Shown here piece after piece: positions 680 to 55,938 of a stretch of DNA of 64,000 bases. Each line of letters starts with the position of its first letter. The stretch's first letter is position 1. Origin of the DNA: Phyllobates terribilis (lineage: Eukaryota); the NCBI RefSeq assembly GCF_046119375.1, contig NW_027362761.1, positions 494,202,001-494,266,000 of the forward strand. Reading direction: 5' to 3'. A program made the translations under genes and the position numbers. The notes beneath the pieces were generated by a model. The model worked only from the letters and a program-made list of their open reading frames with translations. It did no database searches and was not told the origin of the DNA.

Positions 680-1035
680 TGACTCGCCCCCTGGGCCGTG
701 GGGCAGTAGTGGCAACCCAGTTCCGTGGCTCAGGGTGGTCAGACCATTGGTAGTCTGCTTCGCGCTGTTGATGTGTCCGACTACGCCACCCGTGGATTGC
801 GGTCAGTGCGGACTGCCGCTGCCAGGTAGACCGCTGGGGCTGATGATGTATGCAGCTGGGATAGTGTCACTCCCCACGGGAAGAGTGTGGCCCTATGGCA
901 GTATAATGGAAGATGGGGGTGATGGTGCAGGACGTCCCAGTACCATTAGTGCTGGAGGAGCAAGGAGCACACAGACAACAGGTTGCAGTCCAGGGTCTTT
1001 ACTAGACCAGGTGAACTGACCCACAAACAGGCCGG

Positions 1036-1671: not shown

Positions 1672-4600
1672 TTGGCACTATATAAAAATAAAGATTATTA
1701 TTAGTTTATTGAATGGAAAACTTGTTAGGGAATATATACAAGAGATAACAGGCACACAGACTTATGAACGTATCCTTTACAACTTAAAGCATTTTCCACA
1801 CAGTTTCCTTCCTTCTTTTCTCTATTGTTCTCTATCTTCACTTTTCCTCTTTACTGTCTCTATAGGTCCTTTGTATTCGCTGTTCCTCACTACTTCACCA
1901 CAACCCAGCTTAACACTACAGTCCTGCTTAGGAAGAGTCATGTAATCGTCCCGTGGTTCCGCATCTTCTTTCCCCTAATGGTGCCAGTATGACTGGTACT
2001 TATCTTCTCTAGTAATGATGCACTGGAACTTCCATCCGGGGCATTTTACTTATCTCACATACTCTTTGAGTTGTAAACTCTGGACCTTGCAACTAGGTGT
2101 CCACTCTCATGACCTGTCTCTGGTAGTTCACACTGTCTATCAGTCACTTCTGCTCTGGATCTCGCTATCTTTTCCTTTCGGTCTCATCTCAGTTTAGGGA
2201 CACCCCAGACTGTGGCACTGCTCACATTTTACCTTAGGTCCTCTTTTTATGCACTCTGGGCCCTGTCTGACTCACTACCAGGAAATTGTCACTTTCCCTT
2301 CAACATAGCCCCTCCCACTATGAGTTAGTCCCAAACATTAACTCTATCCATCCCTGCTGTCAAACTACTCTCATTATCAATATTACTAACATCTTTAACG
2401 CACATCACAATTCACATTACATCACATAACATTAAACTTGTTTCTTCAAGCAAGAACGTGGGCAACATATCCATCTCCTTACACGGGACTTTTTTTTTTT
2501 CTATAGGGCTAATAACTTACTGGCAGATATTTGATATCTACCTGCCTGTGCTGCTTTGCAATGATATTTTCTGGTTCAGTTCGGTCATGCATCACTCCTG
2601 ACTGTGATTCTCCTGTTCCCTGTGACGGCACATCAACAGAGCAGGTTCTTCTATTCTGCTGCTTCCTTTGACCTCACGTCGACAGAGCACCTCTTTCTTC
2701 ACCGCTCTGCTTTGTCAACGGGGTGTCACCACCAACGTCATACTGATTGACAGTCGGCTCCCCGCCGCCTAACTGTGGGAAGCTGGCTGTGAATCAGCAT
2801 GACTTTAGCAGTGGATGTGTGACGCCTCTACTCGTAAAGCCCCTGTTTTACCCTGGGTGTTGGGGCACTCTGTGTCGGGCCCTGTGATGGAGAGGTGGGA
2901 TGCAGCCGTGGCCCGGGCCCGACCCGCGCTCAGGGCCGTCACATTAGAAAGAGATGGTATGGGCTTGTCCGGGTTGAGTGGCTGATTAACAACTACGCCA
3001 CCTGTGGTGCCTGATGAAGGGTCACCAACGCCGCTGCAGTCCGCTGAGGCATGGTGTTATGGCGGCCAAAGTTCTTACTACTCCCCACAGGCGGAGCAGG
3101 ACCTCAGGGCAGAGGGACAGGATGGAGGGGGTAGTAGTTGAGGAGAACGGGCTCCGCGTCTCGCGGTGTGGCGCAGAAATAACAGTCCGGAGGCCATAGG
3201 GGTGAACTTCCAAGGCTTTACTCACTTCAGAGATGGCAGAAGGAAGGCGACTCCCTGCTCCCCGCGGAGTCCTGCGGTCTCCAGGGACAGGGGTCCGACA
3301 ACCTCCGAGTAAGTCCAGCATTCAGTCGCGGCCCTACAGCAGAGTGTTCCTGAACTACAGACCGAATCCTTTCCTGTCCGTGTGTGTGCAAATAGGCCAG
3401 GTCTCCCTCTGAGCTCCTCTCAGAACTAGGGCACGGGTGGCAATTCCTCTCCATCCGATACCCGGTGGGATCCTCTGGGCCTAACCGGGCTTTCCCGACC
3501 AGGACATAGAGTAGCAAGGTCGGGTGTCGGGGGCCGGTACCCCTCTTGCAGCCGGAATCCCTCTGAATAGATCAGCTAGGCGAGGACAGGTGGCGTACAC
3601 TGCTCCGTCTGCATCCTCCCCGGGACCCATTTGCTGTGGAGCCACACTCTAGAGCTCCCGGGCCTTCTTGCTCATGGTCCTCGACCGGGCTGAGATAGTC
3701 CTTATCTCCCACCTGCCTATCATCCCAAGGCCTAGGGACTAGGGTCGTGTCTCCATCCCCTGCAGGACCACACAGGATCCACTTTCAGGGTAGGAGATAC
3801 GTTCTGACACCAGTCAGGGCACAGCCGAAAGACCCATCAAAAGACCAAGATCAAAGATGGCTTTACATTAAATAATAGATTAGAAGCGTAACTAATTTGT
3901 AAGTCCTCCACCCTCACCCACTAACTGGTTCCTACCACTTTGTGTTCCCCAGTCTCCCTGTAACCAGGGGAGCAGCACCTAGTGCATACTAGCCCCCCTT
4001 GGATGCAAGAGATTTGGTCACGACTATCACACTGACCTTACCTCAGAGGAGGAACACCACACTCCATTGAAGATAGTGCAGCATCCCTGTGGCGGTCGAA
4101 CCCTCAGGGGCGCCACATTCCCCCCTGGTAAAACACAGCACGTCCGCGGGCTGCAAAAGAAGTAACACCCAGGAAATTTCTTTTTATAATAACAAGAAAA
4201 CTATCATCCCTTTATGGGAGGCACCATTTCTTAAACGTTGCATAACAGGATATACAGTATAAAAATCTAAAAGTATAAAATTACAAAAGTGCTAGCATTT
4301 TTCCAGAGACATTAGTGCAAACAGACAGATAAAAGTGCAAGGACGCAGAGTCAGTTCAGAAGTGCGAGGGACCTGCCCTAAACCCTCAACGTGGGCCCTG
4401 GGATGGCTGCAGGGCATGAAGATCCCGAGTTGGACCTTCCGGAGAGCCACCCTGACAGGTTTTTCTTCTGATGTCTTGAGGTAGAAATATCCGCGGTTTT
4501 TGTATAAAACCAATGTGGAGCACCTAAAGAGATGCAAACTATTTACAATTTAAAGAGTCTGTCTGCTGCCAGTCCGCAGGGATACGTGTCTCTAGAAGCC

Positions 4601-4676
4601 GGTTAAGAAATTAAGCAATAATAGAAAAAGTCAACATTTAAACTTGTAAACAAAACAGAAACAGCCGGAGGCTGCT

Positions 4677-6125: not shown

Positions 6126-6143
6126 ATCCTGCCGACTACGCCA
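6126..6143 (-). other. Primer-binding site, tRNA-Ser (AGA/TGA type), element A
   Basis: Minus strand TGGCGTAGTCGGCAGGAT is complementary to the vertebrate tRNA-Ser 3' end ...ATCCTGCCGACTACG-CCA (tRNA sequence recalled, not searched). 3-nt spacer to the LTR. Confidence 0.88.
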
Positions 6144-7952
6144 GGTTGTGACGCCTCTACTCGTAAAGCCCGTGTTTTACCCTGGGTGTTGGGGGACTCT
6201 GTGTCGGGCCCTGTGATGGAGAGGTGGGATGCAGCCGTGGCCCGGGCCCGACCCGTGCTCAGGGCCATCACATTAGAAAGAGATGTTATGGGCTTGTCCG
6301 GGTTGAGTGGCTGATTAACGACTACGCCACCTGTGGTGCCTGGTGAAGGGTCACCAGCGCCGCTGCAGTCCGCTGAGGCATGATGTTATGGCGGCCAAAG
6401 TTCTTACTACTCCCCACAGGCGGAGCAGGACCTCAGGGCAGAGGGACAGGATGGAGGGGGTAGTAGTTGAGGAGTACGGGCTCCGCGTCTCGCGGTGTGG
6501 CGCAGAAATAACAGTCCGGAGGCCATAGGGGTGAACTTCCAAGGCTTTACTCACTTCAGAGATGGCAGAAGGAAGGTGACTCCCTGCTCCCCGCGGAGTC
6601 CTGCGGTCACCAGGGACGGGGGTCCGACAACCTCTGAGTAAGTCCAGCATTCAGTCGCGGCCCTACAGCAGAGTGTTCCTGAACTACAGACCGAATCCTT
6701 TCCTGTCCATGTGTGTGCAAATAGGCCGGGTCTCCCTCTGAGCTCCTCTCAGAACTAGGGCACGGGTGGCAATTCCTCTCCATCCGATACCTGGTGGGAT
6801 CCTCTGGGCCTAACTGGGCTTTCCCGACCAGGACATAGAGTAGCAAGGTCGGGTGTCGGGGGCCGGTACCCCTCTTGCAACCGGAATCCCTCTGAATAGA
6901 TCAGCTAGGCGAGGACAGGTGGCGTACACCGCTCCGTCTGCATCTACCCCGGGACCCATTTGCTGTGGAGCCACACTCTAGAGCTCCAGGGCCTTCTTGC
7001 TCATGGTCCTCGACCGGGCTGAGATAGTCCTTATCTCCCGCCTGCCCATCATCCCAAGGCCTAGAGACTAGGACCGTGTCTCCATCCCCTGCAGGCCCAC
7101 ACAGGATCCACTTTCAGGGTAGGAGATACGTTCTGACACCAGTCAGGGCACAGCCGAAAGACCCATCAAAAGACCAAGATCAAAGATGGCTTTACATTAA
7201 ATAATAGATTAGAAGCGTAACTAATTTGTAAGTCCTCCACCCTCACCCACTAACTGGTTCCTACCACTTTGTGTTCCCCAGTCTCCCTGTAACCTGGGGA
7301 GCAGCACCTAGTGCATACTAGCCCCCTCTGGTGGAGAAGTGTGGTGTTGGATGCAAGAGGTTGGGTCACGACTATCACACTGGCCTTACCTCAGAGGAGG
7401 AACACCACACTCCATTGAAGAAGTGCAGCATCCCTGTGGCGGTCGAACCCTCAGGGGCGCCACAGATGCACTGTCGACAACAGAGCAGAAAAGAAAGAGA
7501 GTAAGCTGCTCGATCGACGTGAGGTCAAAGGAAGCAGGATAATGGCACATGAGCCTGGAGAGATTGTAACAGGCAGAACAGACAAGTAGTTAGCAACTAC
7601 CTGCTTGTAAGCTCTTAGCCATATAGGAAAATAAAACAGTCCCAGATATGCTGGCTTTGCAGCATCTTGCTGACATCACTGTCAAGCACAGAGCTATGAT
7701 GCCTGTAATACAGCAGGTGATGGCTGAGGACACTGATCGGCTGCAGTGGTCACAAGGTAACAGGAGTATCTGCATTGCATCAGCTGGAAAAGAAGTAGTG
7801 AGCACTTTTTTTTCCTGTACTATTTTCAGCTGTTTTTTAGGTTTTTCTTTTTTCTGTTTTGGAAACTGATAATCCCTTCTTAACTGCTTTAGGCAACTGG
7901 AAGTGTTCATATTAACCCTTTCAGTAGTACTAATAATAATATGTAAAGCTAC

Positions 7953-8440: not shown

Positions 8441-9426
8441 TGTCGTGCCCAGGGGATGCGGACAACTCGGTACCCGGGCCTTTACCTGGTTTGGGGATGT
8501 CACGGTGGTCGGCTCCCAGGCCCGTAGCCTGGGGTCACTCTTGAAAAAGGGGATTGTAACTTGGATAGAAAAATAAAAATAAAGTAAATAGTTTGTGACG
8601 CCACCTGTGGTACCTGGTAAGGTTTACCAGATCTGCTGCAGACCTCCGGGGGGGTGTTGGGATGTCAGCTGAGGTGTTTCTGCTCCCCACAGGTGGAGTG
8701 GGCCCCAGGGGCAGTGTGGAGTTTGATGGTGGGTGGTGATGCTGGGGCTTGTAGTGCAGGCGGGATGGCGCAGCAGGAGTAACTGACAGAGACAGGGGAT
8801 TCGCTTCAATACCTTTACCAATGCGGATGTCAGGTACGTTCCAGGGTACTCAGTAGGATGGGTGCACTTCAGGACTTCTCCCCAGTGAGCGGGTATAAGG
8901 CCTCCTGGTCCGTGTCTGCCTCTCTGTATGCTCCTGGCCAGCCTGCAACTGGGCCTAGCTTATGTGTCGTGCTGTTCCTTCACCTGTCGCTCGGTAGTAG
9001 GACCTTCAGGTCAGCCAGGGACTTGTAGTCCTCCTGGAATGCCGGTGATCCCTACTGGGTATAAAGGACCCTGTAGGCGCGGACCCGGTGTCCGGTTTGT
9101 ATATCGGGGTGAGCCTTTGATACTCCTCTGCCCCCTCAACTCCTCTCTCCTTTCTCCTCTTGCCTTCGGCCACACTCGGGGCCCTCAAAACGGCAGCAGA
9201 CGTGCTGCGTCTTCGCTGCTCTCAGCGTAAGCACGCTCTCTCAACTACTAACTCTGACTGAACTGAACTGCCTGGCTCCACCCTCCATATATATATCCCT
9301 AACGGGCTCCCTCTGGTGGTGTGAGGTGGAAGGGTGGAGGTGTTTGTATGTAACGAGGGCCTCTTGTGGAGAAGTCCGTCCATGCACCCTGGGTCCTGTG
9401 GTACCTGTGAACAGCAGGGTGCCACA
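8441..9426 (-). mobile_element. Diverged solo LTR related to the autonomous Gypsy at 29072
   Basis: The first ~200 bp align to 29072 onward (CCCAGGGGATG...ACTCGGTACC...GTGACGCCACCTGTGG). Ends GGTGCCACA. TSD is not clean (TTAT/TTGG). Confidence 0.75.
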
Positions 9427-25371: not shown

Positions 25372-26343
25372 TGTGACACCCCAGGGGTCTGGTTGCCACA
25401 GTGATAGAGATATTATGTCTGAGAGCAGGTGGGAGGTCCTTTGGTCAGGGATCCTGTGCATGCCACACCTCCTGCCCAGTCTTGGGAGGGGAAGAACTTC
25501 CCCTGTATAAACCCGGGGCTGAGGCAGGGTGAGTCAGACAAGGAGAGTGGAGAAGAGAAGCAGCATAGGAAACAGCAGAGTTACAAGGAGTCAGGGGCTG
25601 GCAGCTACAGAGCTCGCCCTGACTAAGAAGATTCTTTACCGGACCCGGAGTCCGAGGCTGTGGGGACTAACTCCTACCCAGCAGCAGAATCCGTCGGGCA
25701 GGGGATTTCAGGTCCTCTGGCCCAGAAGCCCGAAGGCACGGTCACACGCGTGGGACCAGCACCGCCATCGTGGAGCGGAAGCCACTAGAAGGCCCCGAGT
25801 CACCGGCCATACGGGTGAGCACCACACGGTACACTCAGGGACGTGGGCTACTTACATCAGCTTCTAGCAAGGTAGCCAGAAGAGTACAGTCAGTTTGGGA
25901 GGCCTACAACTACGCCTGGCCAGGGGAGATCCCATCTGCTCAAAGACTGACCAGGCCCCGTTTGCTAGCAAGTACTCCGGGAGGGTCTGTCGTTGTTACC
26001 AGTAAAGACCCTGAACTACACCGTACCGTCTCTGAGTGGTTCCTGCTACCCCCATCATCCACGTCGGCTGCCCTGAGGCCATACCCCTCCCGTTGGGGGT
26101 TATACTATCACGCTGCACAATCCTACCACCGGCCTCAGCGGTCTGCCCTGCAGCAGCAGCTTCCCGGCTGCACTCAACGGGTGGCGTAGTCATCAACTAT
26201 TTACTACTAATAGACTGCCGTCTAGTTTGACTCCCTGGGCACGGACCGGGTCACCGCCACGAGATTGCAACCCTCCACGGATCCGGCTCCGGGTAAGCTC
26301 CCGCGTGCGCACCGCAGCGCGACACAGGCCCAGGGGCGCGTCA
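25372..26343 (+). mobile_element. Solo LTR, diverged member of the element B LTR family
   Basis: TGTGACACC...GGGGCGCGTCA with TSD CACA. TATAAA ~25506. AGTAAAGACCCTGAAC and CTCAACGGGTGGCGTAGTC...CCCTGGGCACGGACCGGGTCACCGCCAC match the reverse complement of the 53624 LTR. Confidence 0.88.
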
Positions 26344-28780: not shown

Positions 28781-30786
28781 CTCCATACATAAAAAAAAAA
28801 AAAAATCAAATACTCACCTCACTTCTCACCTGCTGCCGCTGCTCAGGACTCCTCAGCCGCGCTGGTGTCTCCCCGCTATGCGCTGCCTGTGACGACTCAG
28901 GAGAGGGCACAGTGTAAAGACATCACCGCGCCCTCTGACCTGAGACGTCACAGTGCAGCAGCCGTGGAAGAGACCGGAGCTGCTGCTTAGGCACGGGGAG
29001 AGGTAAGTATTGTGCCGCCGGCTGCCGGGGACCTGAGCAAGCGAGGAGGGAGCGGGCGCTGACACCGCTCTTGACCCGCCCAGGGGATGGGGATGACTCG
29101 GTACCTGGGCCTTTGCCTGGCCTTGGGGATGTCGCGGTGGTCGGCTCCCAGGCCCGTACCCTGGGGTCTCTCTTTAAAAAGGGTGTATTTTTTGTTAATT
29201 TTTATAAAAGTTCGTGACGCCACCTGTGGTATCTGGTGAGGATCACCAGCGCTGCTCAGTCCACTGAGGCCGATGATATGGCAGCTTGATGGTATAGCTC
29301 CCCACAAGTGGAGCTAGGCCTCAGGGCAGCGTATGAAGGGGGATGCAGGACAGGCGAGACCCAGCAGGGTCAGAGCAAGAACAGGGACAGACACGATAGT
29401 CACTTCAGTACCTTTTACTGATGGAAATTCAGGCACATCCCGGAGCACTGTAGGGTGAAGGGTGCATGTCAGGATCCTCCCCAATGAGCGGGTTTAGGGC
29501 CTCCTGTTTCTTGCCTCTGCGTAGTAAGTTTCTGACCTGCCTGGAGCTAGGCCTAACTTTGTCTATGTCCTGCGCTGGCTGACCTTGTGGTAGAGCCTTC
29601 TCTTGGAGTACACGCTGCTCAGCTTGCGGGGCCTATGTGTCTCCCGGCTCTGTTACGTATCAGCACTTTAGCGATCCTGGGACCTGTAGTTCTCCAGGGA
29701 TTCTGGTTATTTCTTACTGGGTCATAGAGATCCCAGTAAGCTTCGGACCCGGTGTCCGGTAAATTCTTCAGGGTGAGCTCCTCTGCCCCCTATGTACTAA
29801 CTCTCCACTTGCCTTCAGCCTACTCGGGCCCTCACTAGGCTACTCACACTAACGGCAGCTTGCTGCGCTTCACCGATCTTATGGCGCTGGCACACCTAAA
29901 GCTCACTTCTCTGAGCTACACCGAAGTCTTGATCTGGATAAGCTCCACTGCAGGATAGCAATTGCAGGAGCTGGAACAGGCTTTTGTCCTCTGAGGTAAC
30001 TCTTCTCAGACTGTACTGGACTCACTGCTAAACCAGACTGAACTAGACTCTTGACTCTGACCGACTGCTGCCTGGCTCCACCTTCCCTTATTTATCTATC
30101 CCTAACGGGCTCCCTGTGGTGGTCTGAGGTGGAAGGTGGAACTGTGTGAATGATTATGGGGGCCTCTTGTGGAGGAATCCATCAATGCACTCTACTAGGA
30201 TCTGTGATACCAAGCGCAGCTGGGCGTCACATTCGCCCCTAGTTAAGCTCAGCACTCCCAGGCTGAAGTACATTTTTTTTTTTTATAAAACAATAATAGG
30301 ATATATGAACAATGCAATAACAATCTTCCCTTTATGGGAGGCACCAATCTTAAACGTTGCATAACAATAACAAATATGAAGTGTCCTCAAAACTCAAGTC
30401 TCTTATGGTGAGGTTCCCAAGAAGGATGTCCATCTCACAGGGTAGAGTACTTGGTGGTTTGAGGGACCTGTCCCAAACCCTCAACGTAGGCCCTGGGGTG
30501 GCTGCAGGGCATGAAGATCCCGTGTTGGACCTCCAAGGGAGCCACTCCTGACAGGTTTTTCTTCTGAGGTCACCTAAAGGGGCACTTCAGGGAGCTCAAT
30601 TATATACAAAAGCAGTTTTTGGGCTGCACACAGTCCTCAGGCACGAAGTTCTTAGGTAAGCAATAAAGGAAATCATTAGGTAAAACGCAAAGTAATATAC
30701 ATATGCATGACAGTACACAATTTATTCAGTGCATTACAATTTTAATACCCCAGGGGTAACTATCTACATTCCAGAAAGTTAACTAT

Positions 30787-33700
30787 TTACTGAGTGTACC
30801 TCACAGGGGGTTTACCTCTCGTGCTACGTGTTGATCTGCGTAGTGTGGTGGTCTGTGGGGTATCAGAGTCTGCATTGTCAGTTACCCTACCAGTTCTACG
30901 TGTGACCAAGTTGTAAAACTGCCTTAACCTCTCTCTTGGACTGGCAAGTTCACCATTGGCTGGGCCCTCTTGCTCTGCTCCTACCGGGGATCCTTCATCC
31001 TCGGATACTTCTTGAGCTGGCTCTTCTGCAGCACTTACAGGTTCAATTTGCTGTGGAGGGTTTTCTGGCTGTTCATAGAATTGGAGTACTGGGATGATTA
31101 TTACTCCTCCTATTTGAGGCCAATCTGTTGGGAAGTCTCCTAGGTCAGTGTGTATCACCGCTTCTTTAGGCTCTTCCGGTTTGGTGAGAGGCACTTCATC
31201 TTGGGATTTCAGTAGGTCTGGACACAACTTTAGGTGGTCCCTGGACACTGTTGTAGACGTTTTTCCTCCATCTCGACTGATTAAGCATGTCTTCTTATTG
31301 TCAAATCTTGACGGCAACACAGTGTAGTGTTCTCTCTCCCACTGGTCATCAAGTTTGTGATTACTTCTTTTCCTTTTCAATACTGTTTCACCAGGTGTGA
31401 AAGGTTCTGCAGGCGCGTTTTTGTTGTAGTGCGCCTCCTGCTTTTCTCTCACCCGAGTGAGACTGTCCTCGACACAGGCTTGTACTCTTCTGTACTGCTC
31501 TTGTCTGGTCGTGTCCCAGTCTTCAGTGGTCATATCAGCTTCAGGCTCGACAACACCAAGCTCCAGATCCATGGGCAGCTTTCCTGGCCTTGCCCGCATG
31601 AGATATGCCGGAGTGCAATTGGTGGAACTTACTGGTATATGATTATACAGATCCACTAGGTCAGGTAGTAGGTCTGGGCGCTGGTTTCTCTTCTCAAGTT
31701 GTATGGTCTTTAGCAGGTCGATGATGATGTTGCTCATCTTTTCGCAGAGACCGTTGGTTTGTGGGTGGTACGGTGTAGTTCTTATCTTTTTACAACCGTA
31801 TAAATGGCAGAACTCCTTGAACAACTCGGCCTCAAAGGCAGGGCCTTGGTCCGTCAGCACCTGCTCAGGATAACCATGGGGTCTACAGAAATAAGCTTGG
31901 AATGTCTTTGCTGCTGTCTCTGCCGTCAGGTCTTTGACGGGGGCGACCACCAGGAAACGTGAGTATTGATCCACCATGGTCAGAGCATAAGAGTACCCTG
32001 ACCAGCTGGGGGACAACTTGACATGGTCCAGGGCCACGATCTCCAGGGGCCGAGTCGTCTTGATGGGTTGCAGGGGTGCCTTGTGGCTGCTGTAGTCTTT
32101 TCTTCTAAGGCCACAGGGTCCACAGTCTCGGCACCACCGTTCAATGGAGCTGCGCATTCCTACCCAGTAGAATCGGCACTTCAGCAGGGTCTCTAGCTTT
32201 GTCCAGCCAAAGTGCCCCGCCTGATCGTGGTAAGCTTCTAATACCATCTGGATGTCTGTCTTCGGGACCACTATCTGCCACACCATCTCATGGGTCTTTG
32301 GATTGACGTACCTCCGACACAGTTTCTCACGGTAGATAAACAGCTGGCTTCTCTCGTTACACAGCTGCTTTGCTTGGAGAGACGCTTCCTTCTCCAGGGA
32401 GGCACGTTCTTGGGTTATCAGCTCCTTGATGCGGCTGACAACCGGGTCGCAGTCCTGGGTCTCTTTCCAGCTGTGGTGAGGCAGGGGGTTTAACGTCTTT
32501 TCACGCTGCTTCCTGGAGGCTCGTTGCTCGTGGATCATCCCACTCCGGTGAAAGGCAGGTAGCTCTATCTCTTCCAGGTCATCCACTTCTTCTTCTGTGT
32601 CTGACTGGTGAGGCATCCTAGACAGGGCATCGGCATTGGCGTTCTTGCAGCCCGCCCGGTATTTAATTGTAAATTGGTAATTTGACAGCCGAGCCATCCA
32701 TCGTTGTTCCAGTGCCCCCAACTTAGCTGTTTCAAGATGGGTTAAGGGGTTATTATCAGTGAAGGCAGTGAACTTACTGGAGGCTAGGTAGTGCTTGAAC
32801 CTTTCAGTGATGGCCCAGACCAAGGCCAGGAACTCCAACTTAAAGCTGCTATAGTTCTCTGGGTTCCTCTCAGTCGGGCGGAGCTTCCTGCTTGCGTATG
32901 CGATCACTTTCTCTTGGCCATTCTGCTTCTGACTTAGAACAGCGCCCAGCCCTTCGTTGCTGGCATCTGTATACAGCAGGAACAGTTGGCTCTAGTCAGG
33001 GTAGGCTAGGATCTCATCGCCTGTCAGGATCGCCTTCATCTCCTGAAACGACTCGGCTTGCTCCTTACTCCAGTGGAATGGGGGATTTCTGCCTTTGGGG
33101 GACTGCCCTACCAGGAGGTATTGCAGAGGAGCTGCTTTCTTAGTGTAGTCTTTTACAAACCTCCGATAGTATCCTACGAGTCCCAAGAACTGACGCACCT
33201 CCTTGAGGTTCTTCGGCTCTGGCCACTTGTGGATGGCAGTGATTTTCTCCAGGTCTGGTGCTACCCCTTCTGGACTGACAATGTGCCCGAGGTACTGTAC
33301 CTTTCTCTTGAGCAGGTGGCACTTTGAGGGCTTAAACTTCATCCCGTACCAGGACAGTGACTCAAATACCTCTGCCAGGTGTTTCAAGTGGTCCTCGTAC
33401 GTTTTGGAGTACACTATCACGTTGTCCAGGTAAAGTAACACAGTCTCGAAGTTGCGGTGTCCCAGGCAGCACTCCATCAATCTCTGGAACGTTCCAGGGG
33501 CATTGCAGAGTCCAAACGGCATACTGTTGAACTCGCTGAGTCCCATCGGGGTGGTGAAGGCCGTCTTCTCCCGATCCTCCTCAACCACAGCTACTTGCCA
33601 GTACCCACTAGTGAGGTCAAGGGTGGAAAAGTAATTTGCAGACTTTAAGGCAGCTAGGGACTCCTCTATGCATGGTAAAGGGTATGCATCTTTAAGTGTA

Positions 33701-34890
33701 ATGCGATTTACTTGACGGTAATCTACACACATTCTCATGCTCCCGTCCTTTTTCCTAACTAGCACTAGGGGAGCTGCCCAGGGACTACAACTATCACTTA
33801 TTACTCCCACCTTTCTCATGTCCTGCAGCATTTCCTTAGCCTTCTGGTAGTGAGCTGGTGGTATAGGCCTGTAACGTTCTTTGATTGGGGGATGGTCGCC
33901 TGTGGGGATATGATGTTGAACCCCCTTAATCCTCCCGAAGTCAAGTGGATGTTTACTGAACACCTGCGAGTATTCTTGAACCACCCGGTGTACACCCTGT
34001 TTTTGATGGGCAGGAGTGGTGTCTGTCCCAACATGGAGCTGTTGACACCAATCCTCCACCTGGGTTGCAGGGTCATTATCCTCCACTTCATCTGGTGAGG
34101 TTAAGGACTCCGCCTTGTGAATGCAGTTGTTATTGACAGCATGTAATTTGGCAACAGTGGCATAACGTGGCAGTCTGACCTCATCTTCCCCTAAATTGAG
34201 AAGACGGATGGGCACCCTCCCATTACGTACATCTACCACTCCTCTGGCGGTTAAGAGCGTGGGTCTGTGCTCGGAGCAAAGGGGTTCTACTACCGCCTGG
34301 TAGCTCTGTCCTCTAAGACCTATAGCAGCTCTACACCAGATGAGAATTTCACTCATTGGGGGGAAGACAATGGGTATGGGGTCTGTTACCCGCATGTTAC
34401 CGATTTCACCGTCTGTTAACTTTACTTGCTGCTGATACATCAGGACTCGGATCTCCCTCTGCTGTGCCCTCCTCTGTCTTGGTCTGGCAGTGTCGGCTAT
34501 CTGTTGGAGCAAGAACACAACTTCTCCCAAACAGTTACCAACAATGTTAGTGCCTAGTACCATATACGGATTGGTGTCATCAGGATTAGTCTCTACTACA
34601 ATTAGCCCTTCAGCTCCACTCTCCCCACCTTTACAGTCACATTCTTAACCCCGAGTAGGTTATGGGGGAGTCCATTTGAGGCATATACAGAAAGATTTGG
34701 AGCTGGCGGACGTAGGTCGTCCATGAACCAGAACCTCTGTGTCCAGCAGGGCATGCGTCGGGATCCCATCCAACAGAATGGACAGGAAAGGTCTTCCTCC
34801 GACGAACCTGTTGTACCAGTCTGATGGGCCTGGTGAGTTTACTCCTGGGTGTCGGCCCTCGGACCCAGGGTTTTCTCGTTTAAAGGACAA
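30787..34890 (-). pseudogene. pol: pol: protease (LLDT, then deletion/frameshifts), RT (YLDN at the YxDD site), RNase H (YTDAS), integrase (HDQAGH..C..C, D,D35E); in-frame TAG at 32992-32994
   Basis: Motifs SPWAAPLVLVRKKDGSMRMCVDYR, FSTLDLTSGYWQV, MPFGLCNAPGTFQR, ENYSSFKLEFLAL, LTDQGPAFEAELF, TTPYHPQTNGLCE. ORFs 32992-34563 and 30787-32907 are in frame and separated by one stop codon. Confidence 0.95.
34826..34884 (-). promoter_or_regulatory. Putative gag-pol -1 ribosomal frameshift signal (UUUAAAC plus H-type pseudoknot)
   Basis: Heptamer at 34878-34884 where the gag (CPLNEK) and pol (SFKREN) frames overlap in -1. Stem CCUGGGU/ACCCAGG; loop GGGCC can pair with downstream GGCCC. Confidence 0.75.
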
Positions 34891-35872
34891 TTCTGGGCCA
34901 TGTGTCCGGTCTTGCGGCAGCGGTAGCAGGTAGGGTCCTTCGGTGGACGGCGCTGGTCACTGGTCCTCGAAGAGGGTGATGTTGGCCTCCTCCTCCTTCG
35001 CATCCAGGGGACATTCTCAGGGCTATCGGCTAACAGGATTTTCCCTCCTTCCTCGGGCTCTGTCCGCAGCTGCAGAGCACTTAGCACAGTGGTCAGGGTT
35101 TTGCTCAACTGACGCACTTCAGAGCGCAGACTGTCCAGCTCTCTAGGGGACATTGCTGGAACCTTGGCTTCAGCAGCCACTGGGGAAAAGGTGGGTGTAG
35201 CAGGCACTGGGGTAGCCCCACCCTGGTAACGTTGGATGGCATTTGTTTCCAGGGGCTGCAGTCCTTTTATAGCCATGTCCTTAAGATTGTCAAAGGTGGC
35301 ATCTGGATGATCCAGGGACCAACAACGCACAGTCCTGCTCTCCTCTGGAGACCTCAGTCCCCGGACAAACTGGTCCTTTAGCATTTTGTTTTCGTTTTCA
35401 ATGCTGGTTGGACTGACCTGTTTAAGAGCCCGCAGAGCCCCCTGTAGACGCCAGGCGTAGTCCCGAACATTGTCCTCCGGCTGTTGGGAACAGCTGTAGA
35501 ACCTCATCCGGAGGTCTGCCTTAGTAAGATCCTCAAAGACAGTCTGTAGTTTTTGGAATATTGTGGACAGTGACTCCTGGTCTGCGGCTGACCATGTTTC
35601 CACTTCCCGTTCCGCAGCACCGGTCAGTTGTCCTAATACGACAGAGGCTCTTTGCTTGCCAAGATACAACATATCTTCCGTTTGAATCCAGACAGGGTAT
35701 CTGGTTTGCCGTTGTACTGGGGGAGCCACTTTGCTCCAGGCAGAGTCATGGGAATGACAGGGGTTACAGGCGCTGCTGGTGGCGCGGCCGCCTCGGCCTG
35801 CCCGGCGTCGGGCGCGGGTTGAACCTCAGGGACGTTGACCAGCATATCGGCGTTCTGCTGTTCGTCGGACAT
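34839..35872 (-). pseudogene. gag: gag (PNMA/Ma-like capsid plus CCHC knuckle CYRCRKTGHMAQNC), frameshift at ~35665-35690
   Basis: ORFs 35633-35872 and 34839-35729 join into a gag (WLPQYNGKP..., QLTGAAEREV, QQPEDNVRDYAWRL, LKDQFVRGL). Confidence 0.9.
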
Positions 35873-36236
35873 TCTGGCGCCCCCCTAGTTAACCGTGGCC
35901 TACCTTCGTAGTTTTTCTTCGGGTAGGCCGCAGCTCCTCAGGTGACGATCGTCTTCAGGACCTTGCGTCGCTTGCGTCCTTCATCAGAGCGTTCAGAGAC
36001 GCTCCTTACAGGACTTGGCGCTTCCTAGTTTGACGTCAAGGCGTGGGGCGTGTCCGGGGCTTCACGCTCTTTTGCAGGTACGCCCCTCAGTTTCCCGCGG
36101 TTACGCCCTTATTCTCGCTCGGCGGCCCAACAATGGCGGCAATCTTCACCACAGTTAAAACACACAGTTTCTGATTAAAGGCGCACAGTACCCGGTGGCA
36201 ACGGGCAAAACACGGCGTCGTTGCAGCGGGCACGCT

Positions 36237-36254
36237 ATCCTGTTCGTGACGCCA
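36237..36254 (-). other. Primer-binding site, tRNA-Ser(CGA type), autonomous Gypsy
   Basis: Minus strand TGGCGTCACGAACAGGAT is complementary to the tRNA-Ser(CGA) 3' end ...ATCCTGTTCGTGACG-CCA (recalled). 8-nt spacer to the LTR. Confidence 0.85.
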
Positions 36255-39044
36255 GTTGGAGATGACCCGCCCAGGGGATGGGGATGACTCGGTACCCGGG
36301 CCTTTGCCTGGCCTTGGGGATGTCGCGGTGGTCGGCTCCTGGGCCCGTACCCTGGGGTCTCTCTTTAAAAAGGGTGGATTATTTGTTAATTTTTATAAAA
36401 GTTCGTGACGCCACCTGTGGTATCTGGTGAGGATCACCAGCGCTGCTCAGTCCGCTGAGGCCGATGATATGGCAGCTTGATGGTATAGCTCCCCACAGGT
36501 GGAGCTAGGCCTCAGGGCAGCGAATGAAGGGGGATGCAGGACAGGCGAGACCCAGCCGGGTCAGAGCAAGAACAGGGACAGACACGATAGTCACTTGAGT
36601 ACCTTTTACTGATGGAAATTCAGGCACGTCCCGGAGCACTGTAGGGTGAAGGGTGCATGTCAGGATCCTCCCCAATGAGCGGGTTTAGGGCCTCCTGTTT
36701 CTTGCCTCTGCGTAGTAAGTTTCTGACCTGCCTGGAGCTAGGCCTAACTTTGTCTATGTCCTGCGCTGGCTGACCTTGTGGTAGGGCCTTCTCTTGGAGT
36801 ACACGCTGCTCAGCTTGTGGGGCCTATGTGTCTCCCGGCTCTGTTACGTATCAGCACTTTAGCGATCCTGGGACCTGTAGTTCTCCAGGGATTCCGGTTA
36901 GTTCTTACTGAGTCATAGAGATCCAGGTAAGCTTCGGACCCGGTGTCCGGTAAATTCTTCGGGGTGAGCTAGTTAAGCTCCTCTGCCCCCTATGTACTAA
37001 CTCTCCACTTGCCTTCAGCCTACTCGGGCCCTCACTAGGCTACTCACACTAACGGCAGCTTGCCGCGCTTCACCGATCTTATGGCGCCGGCACACTTAAA
37101 GCTCACTTCTCTGAGCTACACCGAGTCTTGATCTGGATAAGCCCCACTGCAGGATAGCAATTGCAGGAGCTGGAACAGGCTTTTGTCCTCTGAGGTAACT
37201 CTTCTCAGACAGTACTGGACTCACTGCTAAACCAGACTGAACTAGACTCTTGACTCTGACTGACTGCTGCCTGGCTCCACCTTCCCTATTTATCTATCCC
37301 TAACGGGCTCCCTCTGGTGATCTGAGGTGGAAGGTGGAGCTGTGTGAATGATTATAGGAGCCTATTGTGGAGGAATCCATCAATGCACTCTTCTAGGATC
37401 TGTGATACCAAGCGCAGCTGGGCGTCACACTCTCCTCCGCTCATGGGTCCCATAGCGCGGCAGGGTTCCCGACTGTGAGTGGGCCCCTCCGCCTGCTCAG
37501 GGCCCCGGCACTTGCCCGGGTGCGGCGGGTGCTGATGCCGGCCCTGTCTCCCTGCAAGAGTTTTCTTATACTATAGATAATTGGATGGAGACACTGACAG
37601 TATGATACGTACTTGAGACAATGACTAGTTTTGTGTACAGTGTGTGTCTATGTGTGAGACACGTTAGATGCCCAGAGCATTTTTTCCACCTGACTTATGG
37701 TCTGGCACAAACAATAGGTATTTGCCATGACCCTGACTTAAACTTGACTTAGTTATTATTTCACCCTTGTACTCTTAGCTTAATAGGGATTTGTGTAATA
37801 ATATACCAGGCAGTAGAAAAGAGGTAAAACCGGAATCCTTGGGAATATGTTTTTACAGAGGACTGTGCCACATATAGATGTTTATATTGGTGGATAAGAA
37901 GTTCTGTCTCACTGTAAGGGCTCCTAAACTCATCAGTTTTTCTCATACAAGTGCTATCCGTGTTTTTCTTTCACAAATTAAACTAATACCTGTGATAGTT
38001 TAAGGGGAAGTTGACGTGTCTGATTTTTTTCCTCGGACCAAGGGATCCACACAAAAGTTTGGAGACTTTTCTGTTATTAATCCAAGTGTTGGATCACACT
38101 CACCAATGCAATTCTGTGGGACCGTAAATTGGACAGCACTCGAATGCCAACCACGTGCTCTCCATTTATCAAGGACCGTTTGATAGGAGAAGCTTGAGAA
38201 ACCTCCATTGTTTATTTTTTTCATCTGTGAAAAACTGATAAAACTCTGGCCAAACTCTGATGACACTCTGATGAAAAACACTGATGAATGTCAGAAGACC
38301 ATACTTTGTATACAAGAAAATGACTGATGTGTAATTTACTATTTAATTCAGTCATTTCTAGTGATGAGCAAGCATACTCGCAAATACTCGTTACTCGACT
38401 GAGCATCTCAGTACTCGAGATGCTCGGAGCTCGCCGAGTACTTGCGAGATGCTCGGGCGGATGCTCGGGTCCCCTCCCTGCATGTTTGTCGCTCTTTAGA
38501 GCGCCAATTAACATGCAGGGATTGCCTGTCACTCACTGTAATGCCGCAGCCATGTTGGTTGTGGCATTACAGCGATTGGCTGGCCGCACAGCGCCATCAG
38601 GTCTATATCAGACCTGGCGCCGCTGTGCTCGTCAGTCTACTCCGCAATCAGGCAGTATAGGGAGAGGTGCTGCTGAGCTAGGGAGAGATTTGGTTGTGTA
38701 TTAGGTAGTGTAGGGAGAAAACAAGTACATTACACTTATCCATCTCAACAAACAGTCCTTCTGAGGACTAATCCATCTGCAGAGATATCAGGCAGGCAGG
38801 GTGTATAGGCAGGCAGTGTATATAGCAGACTGCAGTGCATATAGCACAAGAGGCTCCATTCCAGTTCTGCCTTCTGCTGCTGTTAGACATTTCTAGACAA
38901 AGGCACAGGTCTCAGGGGCCAGGAATTTTTTTTTTTGGATCTTTATCCTCATTATTTGCTTAAAAAGCAATCCAGAGAACACCGTTTTTCTGCGCCATTT
39001 GCTTGTTGGCCCTGCAGAATACAGCCAGGTCCTTTCCATATTAC

Positions 39045-44781: not shown

Positions 44782-45916
44782 TGTGGCGCCCCTGAGGGTT
44801 CGACCACCACAGGGATGCTGCACTTCTTTAATGGAGTGTAGTGTTCCTCCTCTGAGGTAAGAACAGCGTTGTGGTTGTGGTCCTTGTAGTTTAGTTCTTC
44901 GACGGTCTTGGTTAGTCAAATTGCCTGGCTGTCATGTACTGTGATCTCCTACCCTGAAAGTGGATCCTGTGTGGGCCTGCAGAGGATGAGGATACAGCCC
45001 TCGTACCCTGGCCTTGGGACGACGGGCAGGTTGCAGACGAGGAATGTCTCAACCTGGTCAAGGACCACAACCAAGAAGGCCCGGAGCTTAGGAGTGTAGC
45101 TCCACAGCAAATGGATCCCGGGGAGGATGCAGATGGAGCGGCGTACGCCACCTGTCCTCACCACCTGATATATTCAGAGGGAGTCCGGCTGCAAGAGGGG
45201 TACCGGCCCCCGACACCCGACCTTGCTACTCTATGTCCTGGTCAGGAAAGCCCGGTAGGCCCTGAGGATCCCACCGGGTATCGGAAGGAGCGGAGCTGCC
45301 ACCCGTGCCCTTGTTCTGAGAGGAGCTCAGAGGGAGACCCGGCCTATTCACACACACAGACAGGAGAGGATACGGTCTGTAGTTCAGGAACACTCTGGTG
45401 CGGGGTCCCGACTGAATGCTGGACTTGCTTGGAGGTTGTCGGACCCCCGTCCCTGGTGACCGCAGGACTGCGCGGGGAGCAGGGAGTCGCCTTCCTACTG
45501 CCATCTCTAATGTGAGTAAAGCCTTGGAAGTTCACCCCTATGGCCTCCGGACTGTTTATTCTGCGCTACACCCCACGACGCAGCACACGGTCTCCTCTAC
45601 TACTACCCCCTCCATCCGGTCTCTCTGCCCTGAGGCCGTGCTCCGTCTGTGGGGAGTAGTAACAACGACGGCTGCCCTAACACCAGGCCTCAGCGGACTG
45701 CGGCAGTGCTGGTGGCCTTCACCAGGTGCCACAGGTGGCGTAGTCGGAATCAGCCACTCAACCCGGATAAGCCCACACCATCCGTTTTAATGTGACGGCC
45801 CTGAGCATGGGTCGGGTCCGGGCCACGGCTGCACCCCATCTCTCCATCACAGGACCCGACTCCGAGTCCCCCATCTCCCTGGGTAAAGAAAAGGGCTTCC
45901 GAGAAGAGGCGTCACA
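44782..45916 (+). mobile_element. Solo LTR of the element A family
   Basis: TGTGGCGCCCCTGAGGGTTCGACC...GGCGTCACA aligns to the reverse complement of the element A LTR. TSD AATG. Confidence 0.92.
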
Positions 45917-52917: not shown

Positions 52918-55518
52918 GGATGGGAACAATATTAAAGGATGGGGATATTATTACAAGATGGGCAACATTATTATAGGATGGATACAGTATTACAGGATGG
53001 GATAGTGTTACAGCATGGGGGATGTTATTACTAGCTGGGGGACATTTTTATAGGAAAGGGAACATTATTACAGCAAGGGGGACATTATTACAGGATGGGG
53101 GACATTATTACAGGGGTTTGAAATCAAAGTAAACACAAAAAGTACACATTTAGTATTGCTGAGTCTGGAATGACCCAATCTATAAAACCATACTGTCCAT
53201 AACCCATACGATGAAGAAAAAACACTACAAAAATGTTCATTATACTTACACACAAAAAAATGAACAAAAAGTAATCAAAAAGTTGTATAAAAAAAAATGG
53301 TATCACTGAAAATGTCATCTCATCCCGCAAAAAATGCTGCCTGTCAATTTTTTTTTATATATGTGGCCCATTTACCCCGCCGAGTTTGAAGCCTCTTTTG
53401 TAGTCCCTTCATCTTTCCAGAAATTTCTACCTCACCATTTGTCAAGGTCAATAAACTACCTAAAAGTTCTTCCACTGCATCTTGCTGGATTGTCTACATG
53501 CAGCTGGTCAGACTAGTGAAGAGCGGATAGCAAGTACCTAACATTGCCTGTACAGAGATTTGTGCTCACATCCGTTGGACACATCTCACCAACATAAATA
53601 GGTAGAAAAATAAGCTGTGTATGTGACGCGCCCCCTGGGCCATATTCAGGGGATACCCGGAGCCGGATCTGGATAGGGGTAGTAGTCCTTGTGGCGGTGA
53701 CCCGGTCCGTGCCCAGGGTGTCAAACTAAGTGGCAGTCTATGGCAGTAGATGTTAACTTGGATGTCGACTACGCCACCCGTTGAGTGCGGCTTTGCAGCC
53801 GCCGCTGCAGAACAGTCCGCTGAGGCCAGTGGTATGGGTGCAGCGATGATGTTATAACCCCCAACGGGAGGGGTATGGCCTCAGGGCAGCAGGGATAGAT
53901 GATGGGGGTGATGGTGGTACACGAGCGCAACAAAGACAACTCGGAGTCTTGGTGGTGCAGTTCAGGGTCTTTACTCACGGTTACTCGGTTACTGCTCCAG
54001 GCCACCTCTCCAGAGGTGGCCGCCTGTGTCGCGCTGTGCTCACCAGGTGAGGGGCTCGGTTAACTCCCAGGTCTTTCTGGAGTGCTTTGCAGGACCCCCT
54101 TTATGTCCCCTGTCTCTGGTCTTCAACCCCACTAGTGACCACGCTTATGTCCAGCTGCCTCGGACCTTCTTGGTGGGCAAACGTTGGCCTGCGTTTCCCA
54201 GGTCCTATGTGGTGCCTTTCTAGCGGGTGTGGTGAGGGGCTGCTCCACATGTAATGTCGCAGCCTCCGGTTCTTAGTTGAGGGTAGTTTCTCTCCTCCAC
54301 TAATTTGGGATCCGGTTCCCATCTTCTTGACCTGACCCCCCTACTCAGGTAGCGGCGGGCGTGTGGTGGCTACCAGCCAGTCCACACCCCTGGGGTCCCC
54401 TCTGTCCTTTCTGGAGCCCAGTCTGCTCCCCTTCCTCCTTCTTCCCTCCTCCAGGCTCAGGCCTCCTGACAGGGCCTGCCTGTGGAGCAGAGCCCATAAA
54501 GCAGCTCTGCTCCCTGTCTTCTCCTCTCTCAACTCACTCCCTTTCCAAGATGGTGCCTCCCTTTATACTCCTGTACAGAGTGCACCCAGGATCTACTTCC
54601 CCCACGCACACACTACCGGGTTCCCTTCTCTAGGTGTTCCCTCCCCCCACTCCAGCCAGGGACATGCTCACTCGTGCCTGCATAACTAATGGGAGCACCG
54701 TCAAGCTGTCCCCCGGAAATGTGGTGTAGTGCATGTGGGTGTTAGGGTCCTGAGCCACACTCCATCCTTACCTGGAAGTGAGATATCGCACATCTGGGTG
54801 AGATGCAATACCTCTGTAGCAACCGAACCCTCGGGGTGCTACATTCCCCCCTGGCAAAACCCAGCACGTCCGCGGGCTGGAACTAAGCAAAAGACAGGGT
54901 ATACATTAGAACATGCAAATTTTTCATAAACAACAAGTATAACAGGTATCAACATTCAGTTTCCCTTTATGGGAACGGCTCTCTCTTAAACGGTATAAGT
55001 GCATATGTACTGTTCTGGAACTCTTTTTCATAGTAACACATTCTAGCATATAAATTTTTCATATAAAACATTTCTAGCAGCAGATCCACGAAGAAGTCTC
55101 TTTATAACAGGTCACAGTTATTCTGCAACCATGTGTCCATTTTCCTAAAACAGGGAGACGTAACCAGGTAGGGGTCTGTCCTGCCCCGAGTCCTTAACAG
55201 TCTTTTAGTCCATCCTGGGTTACGCTCCACTAACTGTACAAAGGATTCCCGGTAAATCCACCAAGGACTCCTATACATTACTAGAAACACATAATTATTT
55301 ACAGGATATGGCCGCTCTCAGTCCTCGGCCAGGTAGGGGTGGCTGTTCTCAGTCCCCAGCCAGTTAGAGGGAAAAAGGGGTGGCTGTTCTCAGTCCCCAG
55401 CCAGGTAGGGGGTAAGGGAAACAGTTCTCTTTCTGTCCCAACGGGGACCACACTCTTAGTGGAAACAGTCCCACAACAGTCCTTATACCCGGTCGGGTAA
55501 CTATTTACATCTCCTCTT

Positions 55519-55938
55519 TTACCGTTTACGATTAACGGTGTGCTCCACACGCTCCTTTCTCTTTCTCAGGTTCAGACCCATCCGGGCCCTCTTGGTACTC
55601 GGGGTCTGAGTGGTACTGTTAATGACGCCCGGGGTCAGGGGGTGCGACTTTGGGCCTGGGCGCGGGCTGGTGGTGGCAGTGCCCAGGTCTGGAGGGCTCG
55701 GCTGCAGGGCTTGTTGCGGGGTCCGGAGCAGGTCTGCGTCTGCAGCGCCCGGGATCGGCGGCTCCACCGGGTGGCCCGGGAGCAGGCTGACGCTGGCAGC
55801 GTCCGGGACAGGGAGACTCCTCTTACCTGCTCCCGCGACCGCTCCTGCGTCACGCGTCTTCTCCTGGTGCTGGTCGGGGCCCGCGACGGCTGGGGCGCTG
55901 CCGATGCTGGGCAGCTTAGTCTGCTGCCGGTCCGCCAT
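55519..55938 (-). CDS. 139-aa Pro/Ala-rich ORF with basic C-terminus in the gag position of element B (copy 1)
   Basis: Good Kozak context AAGATGGCG, position analogous to the gag start, intact in both copies. No recognisable domain. Confidence 0.4.
   Translation of the reverse strand: MADRQQTKLPSIGSAPAVAGPDQHQEKTRDAGAVAGAGKRSLPVPDAASVSLLPGHPVEPPIPGAADADLLRTPQQALQPSPPDLGTATTSPRPGPKSHPLTPGVINSTTQTPSTKRARMGLNLRKRKERVEHTVNRKR

What the first reader, a model, noticed from the sequence alone, without database searches (positions are those of the whole stretch)
6319..6329. Second PBS-like motif inside every LTR (U5), co-varying with the primer tRNA
Seen: each LTR carries an 9-13-nt copy of the start of the PBS ~100-180 nt from its 3' end, downstream of the AGTAAA signal and therefore in inferred U5. 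Elements with the Ser-AGA-type PBS carry TGGCGTAGTC(G) (6319-6329, 2992-3000, 53766-53776 and repeats, 777-788, 26182-26191, 45736-45747). The element with the Ser-CGA-type PBS carries TGGCGTCACGAAC (29210-29222, 36401-36413; 8591-8603 with one mismatch). The internal motif thus switches together with the true PBS, and in A and the autonomous element it follows CCACA-GG, like an LTR end. Inference: either a functional second tRNA or 3'-tRF binding site (primer loading, alternative priming, decoy for tRF silencing) or a fossil of LTR extension by read-through past an older LTR/PBS junction.
Basis: partly seen in the sequence, partly recalled or inferred. Interest (0 to 1): 0.75.

Follow-up and report, generated by a model that had tools for sequence, protein, structure and literature searches.

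The report
Second tRNA dock inside retrotransposon LTRs

Summary
The motif is real and follows the primer. In this 10.6-Gb, probably frog, genome there are 60,096 Ser-AGA and 4,530 Ser-CGA concordant motif/PBS pairs against 4 + 4 discordant ones, with at least two independent switches. It is not a fossil LTR end: 'CCACAGG' is the 3' strand of a co-varying 7-bp pseudoknot helix, and PBS bases 14-18 are not kept. A third site, complementary to tRNA bases 1-11, switches too. The same module (CC...GG helix, then TGG plus 8-13 tRNA-complementary bases) occurs in a SCAN-gag clade with a Leu-type PBS and in 11 of 26 distant relatives with Ser, Leu or Lys PBSs. One insertion has the site overwritten to the full 18-nt tRNA copy in one LTR only, best read as a tRNA bound and extended there. 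Best model (inferred, 0.5): a tRNA capture and opening site that hands the primer to the PBS, with T-box-like stacking geometry. U5 position, hand-over and charge sensing are untested. Nine literature searches and two look-ups in this scan's notes found no description.

The parts
6319..6329 (-). Site 2: 11-nt complement of the tRNA-Ser(AGA) 3' end (NCCA plus acceptor 3' strand) in the 5' LTR of element A
6330..6336 (-). 3' strand of the 7-bp stacking helix S2 (CCACAGG), directly abutting site 2
   Evidence: 99.6% of cells paired, two pairs with changes on both sides
6414..6420 (-). 5' strand of helix S2 (CCTGTGG), in the loop of hairpin S1
6409..6426 (-). Hairpin S1 (stem 6422-6426 with 6409-6413); with S2 it forms a predicted H-type pseudoknot
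   Evidence: 98.8% paired, three compensatory pairs
6373..6436 (-). Helix P1 (6430-6436 with 6373-6379) enclosing S1
   Evidence: 97.8% paired, three pairs with changes on both sides
6340..6395 (-). Further predicted helices: P3 (6391-6395 with 6359-6363) and hairpin P4 (6351-6357 with 6340-6346)
   Evidence: seen in alignments; not confirmed, where subtypes align out of register; loose P3 pattern in 86 of 92 copies
6231..6242 (-). Site 3: 12-nt complement (two G-U) of tRNA-Ser(AGA) bases 1-12
6126..6143 (-). Canonical 18-nt PBS, tRNA-Ser(AGA)
6546..6551 (-). AGTAAA, probable poly(A) signal
   Evidence: positionally conserved; use not shown
6147..7464 (-). 5' LTR of non-autonomous element A
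   Evidence: 95.9% identical to 2818-4117
2818..4117 (-). 3' LTR of element A; site 2 at 2990-3000, S2 at 3001-3007 with 3085-3091, site 3 near 2902-2913
36401..36413 (-). Site 2 (13 nt, tRNA-Ser(CGA)) in the 5' LTR of the gag-pol element C; S2 at 36414-36420 with 36493-36499
36322..36332 (-). Site 3 of element C, complement of tRNA-Ser(CGA) bases 1-10 with one mismatch
36237..36254 (-). PBS of element C, tRNA-Ser(CGA)
29072..37435 (-). Element C: Ty3/gypsy with PNMA-type gag, RT, RNase H, integrase; frames broken by stops and shifts; 4-bp target duplication; 3' LTR site 2 at 29210-29222
53624..60402 (-). Tandem array of non-autonomous family B (three LTRs); site 2 at 53766-53776, 56545-56555, 59324-59334; PBS at 56380-56397 and 59159-59176; site 3 near 56460-56474
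45736..45747 (+). Site 2 in a solo LTR of family A (about 44780-45917); S2 at 45729-45735 with 45646-45652
26182..26191 (+). Site 2 in a truncated B-type LTR; S2 at 26175-26181 with 26089-26095
8591..8603 (-). Site 2 in a solo C-type LTR; S2 at 8604-8610 with 8687-8693; site 3 at 8499-8509
777..788 (-). Site 2 in a solo B-related LTR; S2 at 789-795 with 874-880

Best explanation
The motif is a second site complementary to the primer tRNA's 3' end, set flush against a conserved 7-bp helix in the LTR, and it likely captures and opens the tRNA before the primer is handed to the canonical PBS. Inferred steps: (1) the tRNA's single-stranded NCCA pairs with UGGN and stacks on the CC/GG end of the helix; (2) pairing runs on through the acceptor 3' strand and stops near the T stem (9-13 nt); (3) in the Ser families, site 3 catches the freed tRNA bases 1-11; (4) the opened 3' end moves to the 18-nt PBS, predicted to be 9-18 kcal/mol more stable, while the helix makes extension from site 2 unfavourable. 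Shown: sequences, covariation, helix support, and one genomic copy best read as extension from site 2. Not shown: binding in vivo, hand-over, U5 position.
For: Concordance 64,626 against 8; at least two independent Ser switches, forced by starred branches, in a tree built with the tRNA-matching columns masked. Site 2 bases 1-11 are conserved (0.96-0.99), bases 14-18 do not match the PBS: the match is about the length of NCCA plus the acceptor strand. Helix S2 is fully paired in 82 of 92 copies, has compensatory changes, and shows G-U 12 times against A-C twice, which points to the sense RNA strand (copies not independent). The same helix-plus-site module is in a SCAN-gag clade of this genome with a Leu-type PBS (11 of 20 loci are of this type, 9 of 11 with a helix of 6 bp or more) and in 11 of 26 PBS-bearing distant relatives on separate branches; 9 of 22 testable loci have an exact match of 8 nt or more against 0.067 expected. 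Site 3 prefers the cognate tRNA in 46 of 48 CGA and 35 of 50 AGA elements and in L162 (0 of 500 shuffles as good); its order and its C opposite tRNA G7 fit the tRNA 5' strand, not the PBS. L232: 4-bp target duplication, 5' LTR site 2 reads as the full 18-nt tRNA copy, 3' LTR normal. No consistent intramolecular partner for site 2 across families.
Against: No experiment. Folding without the tRNA predicts the TGGC toehold mostly paired (unpaired probability 0.09-0.17 at positions 2-5), and the PBS no less open than site 2, so the need for a pre-docking step is not shown. Site 3 is bulged in most AGA families (13 of 50 scored the other tRNA better), weak in L178 (56 of 500 shuffles), not tested in the Leu and Lys groups, and a similar match occurs in L161, in whose 130 available upstream bases no site 2 was found. 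Nine of 26 distant relatives with at least 220 nt upstream lack the module, so it is dispensable for many lineages, including the nearest RT sister L154. The L232 reading rests on one insertion. Rarity of site-2 products (3) may reflect failed integration of short-U5 DNA, not blocked extension.
Confidence: 0.5

Rival explanations
1. A second tRNA stays bound at site 2 as a structural part of the RNA (packaging tag, dimer bridge with its 5' end on site 3 of the partner RNA, or lock on the pseudoknot); there is no hand-over.
For: All covariation evidence fits equally. Predicted site-2 duplexes of -18 to -25 kcal/mol are stable on their own. tRNA bridging of RNA ends is reported for gypsy and Ty3 (PMC1635307, passages).
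Against: A tRNA left in U5 would stand in the path of minus-strand synthesis from the PBS; the stop of complementarity near the T stem suggests a weaker, transient state (inference).
Confidence: 0.2
2. T-box-like sensor: the helix next to the tRNA's A76 rejects aminoacylated tRNA, so the site picks uncharged tRNA as primer or switches the RNA between translation and packaging.
For: Same local geometry as the T-box antiterminator, where NCCA pairs with a four-base site and stacks on helix A1, and charged tRNA is excluded sterically (PMC8704770, passages). The terminal CC/GG pairs are kept in all module-bearing lineages, and a U precedes CC in most of them. B-type families have a downstream sequence able to sequester site 2.
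Against: The base before CC varies in the frog Ser clade (T 51, A 34, G 11, C 3). No equivalent of helix A2 or Stem I was identified; no Rfam match.
Confidence: 0.12
3. Site 2 works only within the RNA: it pairs with site 3 or another anti-PBS sequence and so keeps the PBS free; no tRNA binds it.
For: Sites 2 and 3 can form 5-6 bp; folding often pairs site 2 internally.
Against: It does not explain the conserved TGG flush against a helix, the module in lineages without an evident site 3, or L232; predicted partners differ between families.
Confidence: 0.07
4. Decoy for 3' tRNA fragments that would otherwise block or silence the PBS.
For: 3' tRFs target PBSs (PMC7472051, passages), and the site would co-vary with the primer.
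Against: Site 2 pairs only with the fragment's 3' part and lacks the seed match that the same review calls required for silencing; the PBS outcompetes it; the helix would not be needed.
Confidence: 0.05
5. Regular alternative priming site that yields a short minus-strand DNA with a role of its own.
For: L232 is best read as extension from site 2; L233 and L234 have a full PBS directly after the helix.
Against: Only 3 such copies against about 78,000 exact PBSs; L233 and L234 could be deletions between the two repeats (no matching short 3' LTR was found within about 9 kb).
Confidence: 0.04
6. Fossil of an older LTR end and PBS, left by LTR extension.
For: CCACA-GG-TGG resembles an LTR end in families A and C.
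Against: The upstream bases are a co-varying helix strand and often lack CA; PBS bases 14-18 are lost while 1-11 are nearly invariant; in the 8 discordant copies the PBS changed alone and such copies did not expand; the module recurs with five tRNA types.
Confidence: 0.02

Closest known systems
Multipartite primer-binding sites of Ty1 and Ty3 (PMC5371799, passages) and the two tRNA-Lys sites of Drosophila gypsy (PMC1635307, abstract and passages)
   Same: Extra tRNA-complementary sites outside the canonical PBS in an LTR retroelement; the gypsy sites are also 11 nt.
   Different: There the extra sites pair with other parts of the tRNA (T arm, D arm, anticodon stem) and can be bound together with the PBS. 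Here site 2 pairs with the same 3' end as the PBS, competes with it, and abuts a conserved helix.
HIV-1 primer activation signal and tRNA-like element (PMC8473020, PMC11181671, passages); FIV pairing of U5 with the tRNA 5' end (recalled, not read)
   Same: U5 elements that help load or activate the primer. Site 3 resembles the recalled FIV contact with the tRNA 5' end.
   Different: PAS pairs with the T stem and the TLE recruits LysRS; neither duplicates the 3'-end site.
T-box riboswitch antiterminator (PMC8704770, passages)
   Same: tRNA NCCA pairs with a UGGN-type site and stacks on an adjacent helix.
   Different: Bacterial; 4 bp only, acceptor stem stays closed, specificity comes from the anticodon. 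Here pairing invades the acceptor stem, and the GG strand is the 3' strand of the helix.
3'-tRF target sites at PBSs (PMC7472051, passages)
   Same: Complementarity to the tRNA 3' end.
   Different: No seed match; the site is shorter than the PBS and structurally embedded.

Membership tests
Ty3/gypsy LTR retrotransposon (host element) | LTRs with TG...CA ends, target duplication, PBS, PPT, gag and RT-RNase H-integrase order | tested here: met
   for element C; A and B are non-autonomous with the same LTR type
Multipartite PBS (Ty1/Ty3/gypsy type) | Additional tRNA-complementary site outside the PBS, specific for the primer tRNA | tested here: met
   sites 2 and 3
Multipartite PBS (Ty1/Ty3/gypsy type) | Additional site pairs with a tRNA segment other than the one bound at the PBS | tested here: not met
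   not met for site 2, which matches the same 3' end; met for site 3 (tRNA bases 1-11)
Multipartite PBS (Ty1/Ty3/gypsy type) | Annealing shown and effect on cDNA synthesis measured | not testable with these tools
   only indirect: L232
T-box riboswitch | Match to the Rfam T-box model; Stem I with specifier loop | tested here: not met
   no match near any gathering score in 6100-7500
T-box riboswitch | NCCA:UGGN pairing flush against a helix | tested here: met
   by sequence and covariation only; stacking is inferred
T-box riboswitch | Discrimination of uncharged from charged tRNA | not testable with these tools
   needs a binding assay
Fossil LTR/PBS junction | Decayed 18-nt PBS after a CA end, no more conserved than its neighbours | tested here: not met
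3'-tRF seed target | Pairing with bases 2-7 of the fragment | tested here: not met
   PBS positions 14-18 are not matched in site 2
Known self-cleaving ribozyme or other Rfam family | Covariance-model match | tested here: not met
   best E-value 1.2; cleavage activity itself not testable
U5 element | Lies downstream of the poly(A) site | tested here: inconclusive
   conserved AGTAAA upstream; the contigs laid cannot show RNA ends

The most novel reading that the evidence does not exclude
Several lineages of Ty3/gypsy retrotransposons use an RNA-only, T-box-like device in the LTR that catches the primer tRNA by its CCA end, rejects aminoacylated tRNA at a helix junction, unzips the acceptor stem by strand exchange and passes the uncharged, opened tRNA to the PBS. 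This would be a eukaryotic counterpart of the T-box discriminator and would answer how these elements obtain a free 3'-OH primer.
Probability: 0.2. Interest if true: 0.92.

Novelty: new variant of a known kind. Interest (0 to 1): 0.78.

Why it matters
How LTR retroelements select, open and load their primer tRNA is understood in few systems and is credited mostly to proteins. Here a compact, recognisable RNA module (7-bp CC/GG helix, TGG, 9-13 tRNA-matching bases, often a tRNA 5'-end site) tracks the primer across five tRNA types and several lineages, in over 60,000 copies in one genome. It makes primer capture, hand-over and charge discrimination testable on short RNAs. It may explain why mis-primed PBS switches almost never spread (8 discordant copies), and it warns that PBS-finding tools can mis-call such internal sites.

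Tried and rejected
Rfam scan of the LTR: nothing. Search for a third tRNA type in the frog Ser clade: 2,770 hits; the 30 inspected were point variants, many in duplicated solo or 3' LTRs. Sequencing runs: no RNA holder listed; four runs of contigs laid on the LTR said nothing on starts or poly(A) sites. The column-pair covariation scan was swamped by family structure and was not used. Helices P3 and P4 failed in the pair count (62%, 47% and 33% paired) because subtypes align out of register; they remain predictions. Duplex energies over the whole region between site 2 and the PBS discriminated poorly for AGA families (33 of 52); the anchored test was used, with 6 loci lacking the anchor. Viral contigs gave 4 distant relatives, none with the module. 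Of 79 metagenome loci, 53 had no PBS that my motif list recognised and were not scored. An HDV-like, twister or hammerhead reading was considered from recalled topologies and dropped: the helix order does not fit. CTCF or E-box resemblance of CAGGTG was dropped because the bases change with the helix partner. Two T-box papers (PMC6899168, PMC4104367) are not held; a review was used. No supplements were read.

Full report
Setting. The window holds several related LTR elements. Element C (29072-37435, minus strand) has 96% identical LTRs, a PNMA-type gag with zinc knuckle, and RT, RNase H and integrase in Ty3/gypsy order, in broken frames. A (2818-7464) and B (53624-60402, tandem) are non-autonomous. 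The genome has 10.6 Gb; the closest named RT relatives are from frogs (76% to a Dendrobates protein), so the host is probably a frog (inference).

Observation. The two PBSs equal the last 18 bases of a tRNA-Ser(CGA) gene and a tRNA-Ser(AGA) gene of this genome with CCA added. Twelve of the 14 loci fetched by the tRNA patterns were not tRNA genes but elements whose PBS runs on into more tRNA sequence, which shows that these tRNAs are the primers in use.

Covariation. The genome has 8,117 exact CGA-type and 69,769 exact AGA-type PBSs. With an exact 12-base motif 100-200 nt upstream: 4,530 CGA/CGA, 60,096 AGA/AGA, 4 and 4 discordant. In 103 elements read in detail, 98 carry the cognate motif at 9 or more of 11 bases, 3 at 8, 2 lack it, none has the other type. 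These copies are related, so the counts are not independent events. A tree of 32 diverse copies (33 chosen from 70 with an intact region, one with a deletion dropped), with the tRNA-matching columns masked, needs two changes of tRNA type, forced by well-supported branches: family A of this window is an AGA user nested among CGA users. In the discordant copies the LTR sites belong to one type and only the PBS to the other. So the PBS can be switched by mis-priming, the motif is not rewritten automatically, and such copies have not spread.

Not a fossil. Among the 32 copies, motif bases 1-11 have pairwise identity 0.96 (CGA) and 0.99 (AGA); the next 25 bases 0.31 and 0.49. Matches to PBS positions 14-18 fall to 0.0-0.43. 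The kept part is about NCCA plus the seven acceptor bases. The seven bases before it (CCACAGG, CCACGGG, CAACGGG) pair with the loop of a hairpin about 90 nt upstream. Helices P1, S1 and S2 are 97.8, 98.8 and 99.6% paired, with 3, 3 and 2 pairs changed on both sides; sliding the partners drops overall pairing from 80% to 38-53%. S2 is complete in 82 of 92 copies. G-U outnumbers A-C 12 to 2 in S2 and 22 to 4 in S1, pointing to the sense RNA. S1, one linker base and S2 form a predicted H-type pseudoknot whose free end touches the TGG of the motif. Two more helices seen by eye (P3, P4) were not confirmed. Rfam has no match.

A third site. Between motif and PBS lies a sequence that also switches: GCCAC(C/T)GTGAC or ACCACCGCGAC in CGA families, GGCCACGGCTGC in family A, GCCAC-(1 to 4 extra bases)-GACTAC in B-type AGA families. 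It is the complement of tRNA bases 1-11. Its order fits the tRNA 5' end as one helix but fits the PBS only as two separate halves, and in CGA families it has C opposite tRNA G7, where the PBS has A. The cognate tRNA scores better in 46 of 48 CGA and 35 of 50 AGA elements (13 worse, 2 ties; 6 loci had no anchor).

Breadth. A second clade in this genome, with SCAN-domain gag (Gmr1-like by recall) and a Leu-type PBS (tRNA identity recalled), has the same module 120-230 nt upstream: 11 of 20 fetched loci are of this type, 9 of the 11 with a CC/GG helix of 6-9 bp whose inner pairs vary together. Among 79 RT relatives in metagenome contigs, 26 had a recognisable PBS. Eleven carry the module: L162, L166, L178 (Ser-type), L194 (Leu-type), L196, L209, L211, L222, L223, L225, L231 (Lys-type); L222 and L223 are near-identical, L166 is cut before its helix, L225 has one mismatch. 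Nine with at least 220 nt upstream lack it, L186 is borderline, five are too short. Nine of 22 testable loci have an exact match of 8 nt or more, against 0.067 expected from shuffles; 7 also have GG and a helix of 5 bp or more, against 0.0. Module-bearing elements fall on separate supported branches of an RT tree, with lineages lacking it in between; whether this is one origin with losses or several origins was not tested. In distant elements the helix is a simple 5-8-bp stem, so the pseudoknot is a local elaboration and the helix-plus-site junction is the core.

A trace of binding. Three genomic copies have the full 18-nt PBS directly after the helix. L232 is an insertion with a 4-bp target duplication; in its 5' LTR site 2 reads as the full tRNA copy and continues in register into the rest of the LTR, while its 3' LTR has the usual 12-base site. 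The same 5' LTR lacks everything between base 90 and the 3' strand of hairpin S1. The simplest reading is that a tRNA annealed at site 2, RT extended it about 90 bases to S1 and jumped, and the plus-strand copy of the tRNA then replaced the site (inference from one case). L233 and L234 may be deletions between the repeats.

Mechanism. Predicted duplexes are -18 to -25 kcal/mol for site 2, -14 to -26 for the best tRNA 5'-end match, -34 to -36 for the PBS, against about -8.6 for the acceptor stem. This allows capture at UGGN with stacking on the helix, invasion of the acceptor stem, holding of the 5' strand at site 3, and downhill transfer to the PBS. Against it: the free RNA is predicted to bury the toehold, though with different partners in different families; many lineages do without the module; nothing here measures transfer. 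A stably bound second tRNA is the main rival; charge sensing is the boldest reading. U5 position rests on AGTAAA conserved 150-250 nt upstream and TATAAA hits clustered 700-900 nt upstream; the laid contigs could not test it.

Literature. Read as passages: PMC1635307 (with abstract), PMC5371799, PMC8473020, PMC11181671, PMC7472051, PMC8704770, PMC13524379. In these passages extra tRNA sites pair with tRNA parts other than the 3' end. Nine searches (listings only, apart from the papers above) showed no description of a second 3'-end site on a conserved helix; the library lacks most subscription journals and Repbase reports, and no supplements were read, so absence from print is not proven. This scan's notes gave no finding with all the words and no look-alike sequence; two neighbouring notes concern opposite-sense tRNA mimics and an unrelated shared LTR motif.

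Verdict. Real, selected and widespread; a new variant of the multipartite primer-binding theme with an undescribed architecture. Binding of the primer tRNA at site 2 is probable (about 0.9, inference); capture and hand-over 0.5; interest 0.78.

Noticed in passing
window 4677-5879 (-): Non-autonomous element A carries a 400-codon open frame with a cold-shock domain (Pfam CSD, E 9e-8) in place of gag-pol; cold-shock domains are RNA chaperones, so this may be a captured helper.
   Followed up: no
L091, L092, L094-L103: Elements whose PBS is extended by up to about 30 further bases of tRNA complement: read-through of RT past the usual stop in the primer.
   Followed up: partly
L239, L242, L247, L249, L251, L256 and many rows: Tandem arrays of an about 52-nt unit made of the LTR end plus a Leu-type PBS in the SCAN-gag clade.
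   Followed up: no
window 53624-60402 (-): Three LTRs and two internal parts in tandem, period 2,779 nt, 99.4-99.7% identical.
   Followed up: no
window 4366-4475 and 30461-30571: Elements A and C share a 110-nt stretch of the 3' untranslated region at 90% identity although their LTRs are far more diverged; possible packaging or recombination signal.
   Followed up: no
window 6147-6310 (-) and homologues: The last 110-130 nt of the LTR look like a second folded domain closed by a long stem ending at the terminal CA, with a possible pairing to the conserved CGTGCCC just after the PBS.
   Followed up: partly
L154, L161, L162 LTR ends: The terminal bases of the LTR themselves match the tRNA-Ser 5' end (L162 0, L161 6, L154 32 of 500 shuffles as good), so site 3 may be more widespread than site 2.
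   Followed up: partly
L186, 297 nt upstream of the PBS: Borderline module: 6-bp helix ending CT/AG, then 8-9 matching bases.
   Followed up: no
window 26525-27073 (+) and 39600-40544 (+): Tc1-type transposase fragment next to the truncated B-type LTR; a BED-finger frame further on.
   Followed up: no
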